Below, one piece after another: positions 25,850 through 27,127 of a stretch of DNA of 64,000 bases. Below the pieces are notes generated by a model. The model was not told where the DNA came from, did not search any database, and saw only the letters and a program-made list of their open reading frames with translations. Source of the stretch: the human T2T-CHM13v2.0 reference genome, Homo sapiens. Both the position numbers and the translations under genes were made by a program. Position 1 is the first letter of the stretch, and every line of letters begins with the position of its first letter. The stretch is taken from assembly GCF_009914755.1 (NCBI RefSeq), contig NC_060934.1; one strand, written 5' to 3'.

Positions 25850-26220
25850 AATCAGGGTCATGGTTGCATTGCCCACAGATACGTTTTGTTTAACTTATGC
25901 AAAGTTTATGAAAATTTGGGTCAAATTCAACAAATCTGGAAGACTCACATACAAATGTGGATTTATAGCTTCTCTTGAAAGATTTAGAAGATCTAGCAAC
26001 AGTGGGCTCCCATTATCATGTGGCAACGTTTGTCCAGAGCTGAGTAGTTCTTGTCCCCTTTGAATGCCTGTCCTCTCCAGGTTGCCATGGCCCCCACCAT
26101 TCCCTATTAGCTCAAACTGAGGGTGGAAGTCAGTTGCCTTTTATCATCACATTTGCAGTTTTTCTTTTATACATATTCTTGTATGCCCCAGGAAGGCATT
26201 TGAGCTTGCATCTCTTAAAT
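25850..26220. mobile_element. hAT-Charlie remnant (Charlie4-like) between HK1 and TACR2
   Basis: GCTTCTCTTGAAAGATTTAGAAGATCTAGCAACAGTGGGC motif. Confidence 0.5.
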
Positions 26221-26477
26221 TAGATAAATATCAGCTTACACTGTCTTTTCTGACCCTTACTGGATCCTCTGAAGTGCTCTCTGAGATGGGTGGCTGAGTC
26301 CTCTTAAAGTCAGCATCCTTTCTGGAGTTCTGGCCCCATGTTGTCTTTGTATTGGTATACTGAAGGATGGGGCATGAGCTGAACTTTCAGATGTGGTCTT
26401 CTCGATTGGCTACTTCTCAAAGGGTGCTACACCTCATTCTGCAGCCAGGCACAAGGCTTCAGGGTTCAATAGGCACC

Positions 26478-26924
26478 TATCTCAGTCCATTTGTGTTGCT
26501 TTCATGGAATACCTGAGACTAGGTAATTTATAAAGAAAAGAGGTTTATTTGGCTCATGATTCTGGTGGCTGGAATATCCAAGATTGGGCAGCTGCATCTG
26601 GTGAAGGCCTCAGGCTGCTTCTTGTCATGGTGGAAAGTGGAAGGGAAGTGTTGTGTGCAAAGAGATCACATGGTGAGAGAGGAAGCAAGACAGGGAAACT
26701 GAGGACACCACACTCTTTCTAACAACTTGTTATTTTGGGAACTAGTCCATTCCCACAAGAGTGATGATTCACTTCAACTGGAAGGCATTAATCTATTCAT
26801 AAGGGATCCATCCCCAATACCCAAACACCTCCCACTAACCCCTACCTCCCAACACTGCCACATTGGGATCAAATTTCAACATGAGTTTTGGTGGGGGCAA
26901 GCAAACCATACCCAAACCATAGCC
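26478..26924 (-). mobile_element. MaLR solo LTR (MST type), overlapping the TACR2 C-terminus and 3' UTR
   Basis: Co-linear with the MST LTR at 56490-56873 (TAATTTATAAAGAAAAG near one end; CATGAG...CCAAACCATA at the other). Confidence 0.88.
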
Positions 26925-27127
26925 CTGATCCATCCTGGGGACGCCCCGCCTCCCCACTGGTAGCCTCGGAGGGGGCTGTGTCCCCAGCCATGAACAAAGT
27001 CTCCTTAGTGTGACACCTGTTGACTCTCGTGGAGAGGGAGGTCGTGGGAGTCAGCTCGAGCTTATCTTCCTTGGTGGGTGTGACCCATGGGCAGCAGCGG
27101 AAGGCAAGCCGGAATCCAGAGCGAAAC
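26869..27127 (-). CDS. TACR2: TACR2 exon 5 coding part (259 nt to TGA; C-terminal tail)
   Basis: ccccag|G TTT CGC; [14 protein letters not shown]...[24 protein letters not shown]. The five exons total 1197 nt = 398 aa + stop. Confidence 0.97.

What the first reader, a model, noticed from the sequence alone, without database searches (positions are those of the whole stretch)
26459..26477. Fossil ancestral TACR2 C-terminus and stop survive beyond the LTR
Seen: immediately past the far end of the LTR the - strand reads G GTG CCT ATT GAA CCC TGA (V-P-I-E-P-stop; stop at 26459-26461). Removing the LTR plus 5 nt (the MaLR TSD length) joins GAT GG|G GTG CCT ATT GAA CCC TGA in frame, giving D378-G379-VPIEP384*, a 384-aa receptor. 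From memory, not verified here, bovine and mouse NK2R are 384 aa ending ...GVSTEP and ...GEPAGP, which would make this the displaced original end. Caveat: the two 5-nt flanks (ATCAG vs GGTGC) no longer match as a TSD.
Basis: partly seen in the sequence, partly recalled or inferred. Interest (0 to 1): 0.75.

Follow-up and report, generated by a model that had tools for sequence, protein, structure and literature searches.

The report
Retroelement replaced primate NK2 receptor tail
The last 17 amino acids of the human neurokinin-2 receptor, a drug target, are encoded by a retrovirus-like repeat that likely jumped into the gene in the ancestor of primates, and the original five-residue ending with its stop codon still sits just past the repeat, probably as an unused fossil.

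Summary
Confirmed. A 447-bp solo MaLR LTR (26478-26924, sense to TACR2; labelled MSTB1 in a 2007 supplementary table) lies in the last exon and encodes L382-I398 and the present stop. Directly behind it the minus strand reads V-P-I-E-P-stop. Removing the LTR plus 5 nt, the duplication length measured on 29 other copies, gives 384 aa. 51 of 69 non-primate eutherian rows end in that register, most often VPTEP. VPIEP is the top scorer of 127,966 six-frame positions against their ends. Degu, guinea pig and armadillo receptors, which run past that stop, match the human DNA beyond it, so the proximal 3' UTR is co-linear too. All 10 primate rows, lemurs and tarsier included, carry the LTR tail; 0 of 72 others do. 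The fossil's survival is what neutral drift allows, and no good splice route to it was found. The LTR/coding overlap was catalogued before; the displaced end and the pan-primate dating were not found in 10 literature searches. Any function of the new tail is untested.

The parts
26930..27127 (-). Host-derived part of TACR2 exon 5 (end of R313 to the first two bases of G379)
   Evidence: Annotation; translation; 66-87% identity of the aligned part to non-primate eutherian orthologs
26925..26929 (-). Upstream 5-nt flank (ATCAG), the position of the 5' copy of the target-site duplication, now diverged; encodes the end of G379, S380 and the first base of G381
   Evidence: Simian rows read S-G at 380-381, lemur rows M-L, tarsier T-L
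26478..26924 (-). Solo MaLR LTR, 447 bp, same orientation as TACR2; labelled MSTB1 in PMC2008291 supplement
   Evidence: 39 other places listed at 75-79% identity among 40 scored of 7184 candidates; supplement file 2 row 773
26869..26922 (-). LTR-encoded C-terminus L382-I398 and the present TGA stop (26871-26869)
   Evidence: present with the same stop position in 10 of 10 primate rows and 0 of 72 non-primate rows
26544..26549 (-). AATAAA inside the LTR, a possible alternative poly(A) signal upstream of the fossil
   Evidence: use not tested
26473..26477 (-). Downstream 5-nt flank (GGTGC), the 3' copy of the target site; start of the displaced codons
26459..26476 (-). Displaced ancestral C-terminus V-P-I-E-P and TGA stop, now in the 3' UTR
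26387..26458 (-). Ancestral proximal 3' UTR, co-linear with the read-through extensions of degu (SLVPGCR identical), guinea pig and armadillo; the armadillo stop aligns with the TGA at 26389-26387
   Evidence: no other match in the genome for this part

Best explanation
A 447-bp MaLR LTR sits inside the last coding exon of TACR2 and encodes the receptor's last 17 residues and its stop, and the five codons plus stop behind it match the ends of non-primate NK2 receptors, so they are most likely the original C-terminus, displaced by an insertion in the primate ancestor and now probably an untranslated fossil. Steps: (1) inferred, the element integrated at codons 379-381 with a 5-nt duplication and was later reduced to a solo LTR; (2) shown, the reading frame runs 17 codons into the LTR and stops there, giving 398 instead of 384 aa; (3) shown, the LTR and the old end lie in the annotated 3' UTR; (4) inferred, the upstream duplicate changed later in the simian stem; (5) inferred, the fossil has drifted neutrally, while the new tail is tolerated under at most mild constraint on length and frame.
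For: Register: 51 of 69 non-primate eutherian rows end at the predicted position (49 by the anchor, plus 2 anteater rows by the anchor). Sequence: the commonest end is VPTEP (7 of 49); 10 of 49 are 4/5 identical to VPIEP; best of 127,966 positions. Beyond the stop: degu score 39 (0 of 2397 control segments reach it), guinea pig 31 (4 of 2397), armadillo 29 (7 of 2397). Duplication length: mean flank identity 0.68 at 5 nt against 0.31, 0.22 and 0.27 at 4, 6 and 7 nt over 29 copies. Dating: LTR tail in 10 of 10 primate rows including three lemurs and tarsier, 0 of 72 others; MSTB1 insertions shared with bushbaby are described in PMC10735291. Neutral survival: about 0.6 chance of keeping the 6-codon frame and about 1.1 expected residue changes at 0.11 substitutions per site; 1 difference from VPTEP is seen.
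Against: No ortholog DNA was seen; junction and UTR homology rest on protein sequences. The human flanks match at 0 of 5 positions, worse than any of the 29 other copies. 18 of 69 non-primate rows end off-register. 3 of 6 longer-tailed rows (tree shrew, P0052, Urocitellus) gave no significant match beyond the stop. Rows are representatives of 90%-identity clusters (one stands for 96 sequences), so primates with a broken tail could be hidden. No colugo, bushbaby or loris row was returned.
Confidence: 0.87

Rival explanations
1. Same history, but the LTR-derived tail was kept because it gave the receptor a new function, for example a C-terminal PDZ-type ligand (-V-E-I) or new phosphorylation sites (Y386, T392, T394) that alter trafficking or desensitisation.
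For: Stop position and frame kept in 10 of 10 primate rows; the chance under neutrality is about 0.003-0.26 depending on assumed tree length and indel rate (branch lengths assumed from recall). -VEI kept in 7 of 7 haplorhine rows and human. The coding part of this LTR differs from 27 other copies by 0.147 against 0.20 +/- 0.035 for copy-versus-copy.
Against: Residue change against lemurs (6-8 of 17) equals the neutral expectation of 7.4. 2 of 27 ordinary copies are as conserved in that segment. VEI-stop came ready-made: copies L003 and L020 read the same. Lemurs end VET, ADT or VDT. H395R was tested for Gq signalling and is not among the four variants named as reducing it (PMC11602716, passages only). 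The PDZ motif definition is recalled, not tested.
Confidence: 0.2
2. The displaced end is still used: splicing to the AG at the LTR's 3' boundary (26478-26477) yields a short isoform ending in V-P-I-E-P.
For: An AG sits directly before the V codon, and the frame is intact.
Against: Pyrimidine fraction upstream is 0.3 against 0.6-0.7 at the four real TACR2 acceptors. The three in-phase GT sites of exon 5 (27084, 27024, 26880) look weak by eye, and the better-looking ones are out of phase (no splice-site model was available). The annotation lists 1 transcript. Intactness is expected without selection.
Confidence: 0.04
3. V-P-I-E-P-stop is a chance string, and the DNA behind the LTR is unrelated to the old coding end.
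For: The motif is only 18 nt and the flanks do not match as a duplication.
Against: Top of 127,966 positions at a position fixed in advance; homology continues about 70 nt past the stop.
Confidence: 0.01

Closest known systems
LTR overlap with TACR2 coding sequence, NM_001057 exon 5/5, MSTB1 (Piriyapongsa et al. 2007, PMC2008291, supplement file 2 row 773)
   Same: Same element, orientation and extent (within 1 base), classed as partial overlap with the coding part of the last CDS exon.
   Different: A table row only: the gene name had 0 hits in the two supplements searched, and parts 1-2 of 4 of the main text do not discuss it. No mention seen of the displaced end, the dating or the ortholog comparison.
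IL22RA2 exon from an MSTB2 LTR (PMC2008291, part 2 of the main text)
   Same: A MaLR LTR in sense orientation contributes protein sequence to a primate receptor.
   Different: That case is exonization: an intronic LTR, alternatively spliced, recruited in apes. Here the LTR landed inside an existing coding exon, needs no new splice site, is in the only annotated transcript and is shared with lemurs.
MSTB1 / ERVL-MaLR solo LTRs (Zuo 2023, PMC10735291)
   Same: Primate-specific family with insertions both before and after the haplorhine-strepsirrhine split; this fits presence in lemurs and tarsier.
   Different: This copy carries 4 nt more in its first 54 bases than 11 of 27 compared copies and aligns without a gap to 3 of 27. 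That variant sets the frame ending in VEI-stop. The present subfamily label could not be checked.
Mobile-element-derived alternative C-termini of receptors (e.g. Alu-derived tails; recalled, from no call)
   Same: A repeat supplies terminal codons and a stop.
   Different: Those recalled cases are alternative isoforms beside the ancestral form; here the ancestral end appears to be replaced outright.

Membership tests
ERVL-MaLR solo LTR | Dispersed repeat of about 350-450 bp with many genomic copies | tested here: met
   447 bp; 39 other places at 75-79% among 40 scored of 7184 candidates
ERVL-MaLR solo LTR | TG...CA termini | tested here: inconclusive
   This copy has GG...TA, one base off at each end; 16 of 29 other copies start TG and 21 of 29 end CA, 5 end TA
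ERVL-MaLR solo LTR | 5-bp target-site duplication | tested here: inconclusive
   Met for the family (8 of 29 perfect at 5 nt, 3 of them near-identical duplicates; 0 of 29 at 4, 6 or 7 nt). Not met in the human copy (0 of 5). Compatible with lemur and tarsier residues and with the 384-aa register
ERVL-MaLR solo LTR | Poly(A) signal near the 3' end and no internal region | tested here: met
   AATAAA at 26549, 72 nt inside the 3' end; unique host DNA follows directly
MSTB1 subfamily | Best match to the MSTB1 model among MST subfamilies | not testable with these tools
   No repeat library is held; the label comes from the 2007 supplement
MSTB1 subfamily | Age: primate-only, can predate the lemur split | tested here: met
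   10 of 10 primate rows, 0 of 72 others; family timing from PMC10735291
Classical TE exonization | Intronic element recruited through new splice sites | tested here: not met
   The LTR is continuous with exon 5 and interrupts a former coding sequence
Exaptation (selected new function) | Purifying selection on the element-derived codons | tested here: inconclusive
   Length and frame kept more than expected under most assumed rates; residue change near neutral against lemurs
Class II PDZ ligand | Binding of the free C-terminus to a PDZ domain | not tested
   Only the pattern -V-E-I is seen (pattern definition recalled); search listed 1 paper, off topic by its title and abstract

The most novel reading that the evidence does not exclude
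An LTR insertion gave tarsiers, monkeys, apes and humans an NK2 receptor with a new functional C-terminal docking motif (-V-E-I, PDZ-type) that rodent receptors lack, so human and mouse NK2R differ in trafficking or desensitisation; the buried original end supplies the exact ancestral control.
Probability: 0.13. Interest if true: 0.75.

Novelty: new member of a known kind. Interest (0 to 1): 0.45.

Why it matters
It is a clean, constitutive case of a retroelement rewriting the end of a human GPCR, with the before-state still readable in the same mRNA. Mobile elements that give constitutive coding sequence are described as uncommon (PMC2008291). NK2R is being pursued for obesity and diabetes (PMC11602716) with mouse and macaque data, and the cytoplasmic tail is where GPCR kinases, arrestins and scaffolds usually act (general knowledge). 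Knowing that residues 380-398 are primate-only points to a simple tail-swap test of whether rodent pharmacology carries over. The fossil itself most likely does nothing; its value is as evidence.

Tried and rejected
Ortholog DNA alignment: not possible, the genome tool holds no relatives of this genome. Searches for colugo, bushbaby or loris orthologs: searches returned no new rows. Tree shrew, P0052 and Urocitellus extensions against the post-LTR DNA: not significant (tree shrew best 20 in another frame, 140 of 2166 controls). In one search the control set still held the locus itself; one search repeats it with the locus excluded, for 5 of the 6 rows (Urocitellus left out). Live splice isoform: rejected on acceptor and phase grounds. 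Simple readthrough of the present stop: the fossil is 452 nt displaced, so out of frame, with stops in between. PDB: five entries (9W1J and four others) list the full tail in their construct and 7XWO stops near residue 345; whether the tail is resolved is not shown. No fold was run, since the question concerns 5-17 probably disordered residues. Literature on NK2R tail function: searches gave nothing usable, PMC9325979 passages do not deal with the tail, and two older papers sought by recalled id were not held.

Full report
Observation. The minus strand at 26477-26459 reads G GTG CCT ATT GAA CCC TGA. The annotated TACR2 frame gives 398 aa, with D378 at 26934-26932, G379 at 26931-26929 and the stop at 26871-26869. 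The stated codons and coordinates are correct.

The element. A search of the genome with 26478-26924 listed 39 other places at 75-79% identity among the 40 best scored of 7184 candidates. I examined 29 of those 39. Of these, 16 start TG and 21 end CA, and this copy starts GG and ends TA. The flanks of the 29 copies agree best over 5 nt: mean identity 0.68 and 8 perfect, against 0.31, 0.22 and 0.27 with none perfect at 4, 6 and 7 nt. Three of the 8 perfect ones are near-identical duplicates (L024, L025, L028). The LTR is in the sense of TACR2 and holds an AATAAA at 26549. The supplement of PMC2008291 lists NM_001057 exon 5/5 with an MSTB1 MaLR element of the same extent and orientation, overlapping the coding part of the last exon. 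So the overlap itself is catalogued. LTR bases supply two bases of codon 381, all of L382-I398 and the stop.

The fossil. Searching with the exon-5 peptide gave 82 proteins among 129 candidates: 10 primate rows, 69 non-primate eutherian rows (6 unnamed, grouped by sequence) and 3 marsupial rows. Removing the LTR plus 5 nt gives 384 aa, and no other removal of 0-8 nt does. 49 of the 69 rows end in exactly that register by a helix-8 anchor. Two anteater rows lacked that anchor and fall in the same register by another, making 51 of 69; 18 end elsewhere. Among 49 same-register rows the commonest end is VPTEP (7), and 10 are 4/5 identical to VPIEP; Molossus ends VPIES. A matrix from the 24 distinct ends scores VPIEP 13.3 bits, and only that site among 127,966 six-frame positions of the window reaches it.

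The 3' UTR test. No ortholog DNA is held, but six non-primate rows run past the usual stop and so translate their proximal UTR. Read in the fossil's frame, the human DNA beyond the TGA gives SLVPGCR, identical to degu residues. With the locus excluded from the controls, degu scores 39 (0 of 2397 segments reach it), guinea pig 31 (4 of 2397) and armadillo 29 (7 of 2397). The armadillo alignment runs to its own stop, which falls on the human TGA at 26389-26387. Tree shrew, P0052 and Urocitellus gave no significant match. The stretch behind the LTR has no other match in the genome except its last 115 nt or so, as expected for host UTR.

Dating and the TSD caveat. All 10 primate rows carry the LTR tail with the stop at the same place: gibbon, colobus (2), langur, baboon, squirrel monkey, tarsier, sifaka, ring-tailed and bamboo lemur. 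None of 72 other rows does. The insertion therefore predates the lemur split and postdates the split from tree shrew and rodents; colugo was not sampled. This fits PMC10735291 (parts 1-2 of 4 read), which reports MSTB1 insertions shared with bushbaby. At 380-381 simians read S-G, lemurs M-L and tarsier T-L. A duplicate of the downstream flank would give V at 380, one base from M, and a codon 381 starting with C; leucine there fits the terminal dinucleotide seen in most other copies. This is inferred from proteins; its mechanism is unknown.

Is the fossil used? Probably not. At about 0.11 substitutions per site (half the copy-to-copy distance of 0.22), six neutral codons keep their frame and stop with probability about 0.6 and take about 1.1 residue changes; one difference from VPTEP is seen. 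An AG sits right before the V codon, but its upstream pyrimidine fraction is 0.3 against 0.6-0.7 at the real acceptors, and the in-phase GT sites look weak. One transcript is annotated. If the LTR's AATAAA is used, the fossil would not even be in that mRNA; this is untested.

Is the new tail functional? Open. For: length and stop are kept in all primate rows, with a neutral probability of 0.003-0.26 over assumed tree lengths of 0.3-0.6 and indel rates of 0-0.1 (assumptions recalled); -VEI is kept in 7 of 7 haplorhine rows; the coding part of this LTR is closer to 27 other copies (0.147) than they are to each other (0.20 +/- 0.035). Against: 6-8 of 17 residues differ from lemurs, equal to the neutral 7.4; 2 of 27 copies are as conserved; VEI-stop is already present in copies L003 and L020; the NK2R end is labile in other mammals (18 of 69 off-register). 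In PMC11602716 (7 passages seen) H395R was assayed and is not among the four variants said to reduce signalling; the figure and the supplements were not seen. The rows are cluster representatives, so the primate sample is thin.

Literature. Ten full-text searches (listings only, unless named above) showed no paper on an LTR-derived NK2R tail or a displaced end. TACR2 with 'transposable element' gave 5 papers and neurokinin with MaLR gave 6, all off topic by title and abstract. The library lacks most subscription papers and does not search supplements, where further catalogue rows may exist. Of PMC2008291 I read parts 1-2 of 4 and searched both supplements; of PMC9325979 10 passages.

Verdict. 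It is a new, well-documented member of a known kind: mobile-element sequence recruited into a protein end. The LTR overlap was already tabulated; the surviving ancestral end and the pan-primate dating appear undescribed in what I could search. Interest 0.45; it would be about 0.75 if the LTR tail proves to change receptor regulation (probability about 0.13).

Noticed in passing
window 26911-26929, minus strand: Simians differ from both lemurs and tarsier at residues 380-381 (S-G against M-L or T-L) and at 384 (F against S), while most other LTR copies read F at that place. Either parallel changes or one local event in the simian stem; unexplained without DNA.
   Followed up: partly
window 26544-26549 and 25962-25967, minus strand: The only canonical AATAAA in the 3' UTR lies inside the LTR; the annotated end at 25946 has only a TATAAA variant about 20 nt upstream. 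The LTR may offer an alternative poly(A) site.
   Followed up: no
window 25953-26066: The last part of the TACR2 3' UTR weakly matches four other genomic places (74-84% over 54-111 nt), probably an old repeat fragment.
   Followed up: no
P0014, P0016, P0018, P0052, P0055, P0072; P0044, P0058, P0062, P0076: The NK2R end has been lengthened or shortened independently in degu, guinea pig, tree shrew, armadillo, ground squirrel, kangaroo rats, pocket mouse and elephant rows, so the extreme C-terminus is labile across mammals.
   Followed up: partly
L017, L020, L021 against L004, L006, L010 and others: The compared LTR copies fall into length variants in their first 54 bases; TACR2's copy belongs to the longer one (3 of 27 align without a gap, 11 of 27 are exactly 4 nt shorter).
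   Followed up: partly
L024, L025, L028: Three near-identical copies near contig ends with the same flanks, apparently subtelomeric duplicates of one insertion.
   Followed up: no
flanks of the 29 LTR copies: The target site starts with G in 13 of 29 downstream flanks and 12 of 29 upstream flanks, as it does at TACR2's downstream flank; a mild site preference is possible.
   Followed up: no
window 26881-26883: The human missense variant H395R assayed in PMC11602716 lies in the LTR-derived segment.
   Followed up: partly
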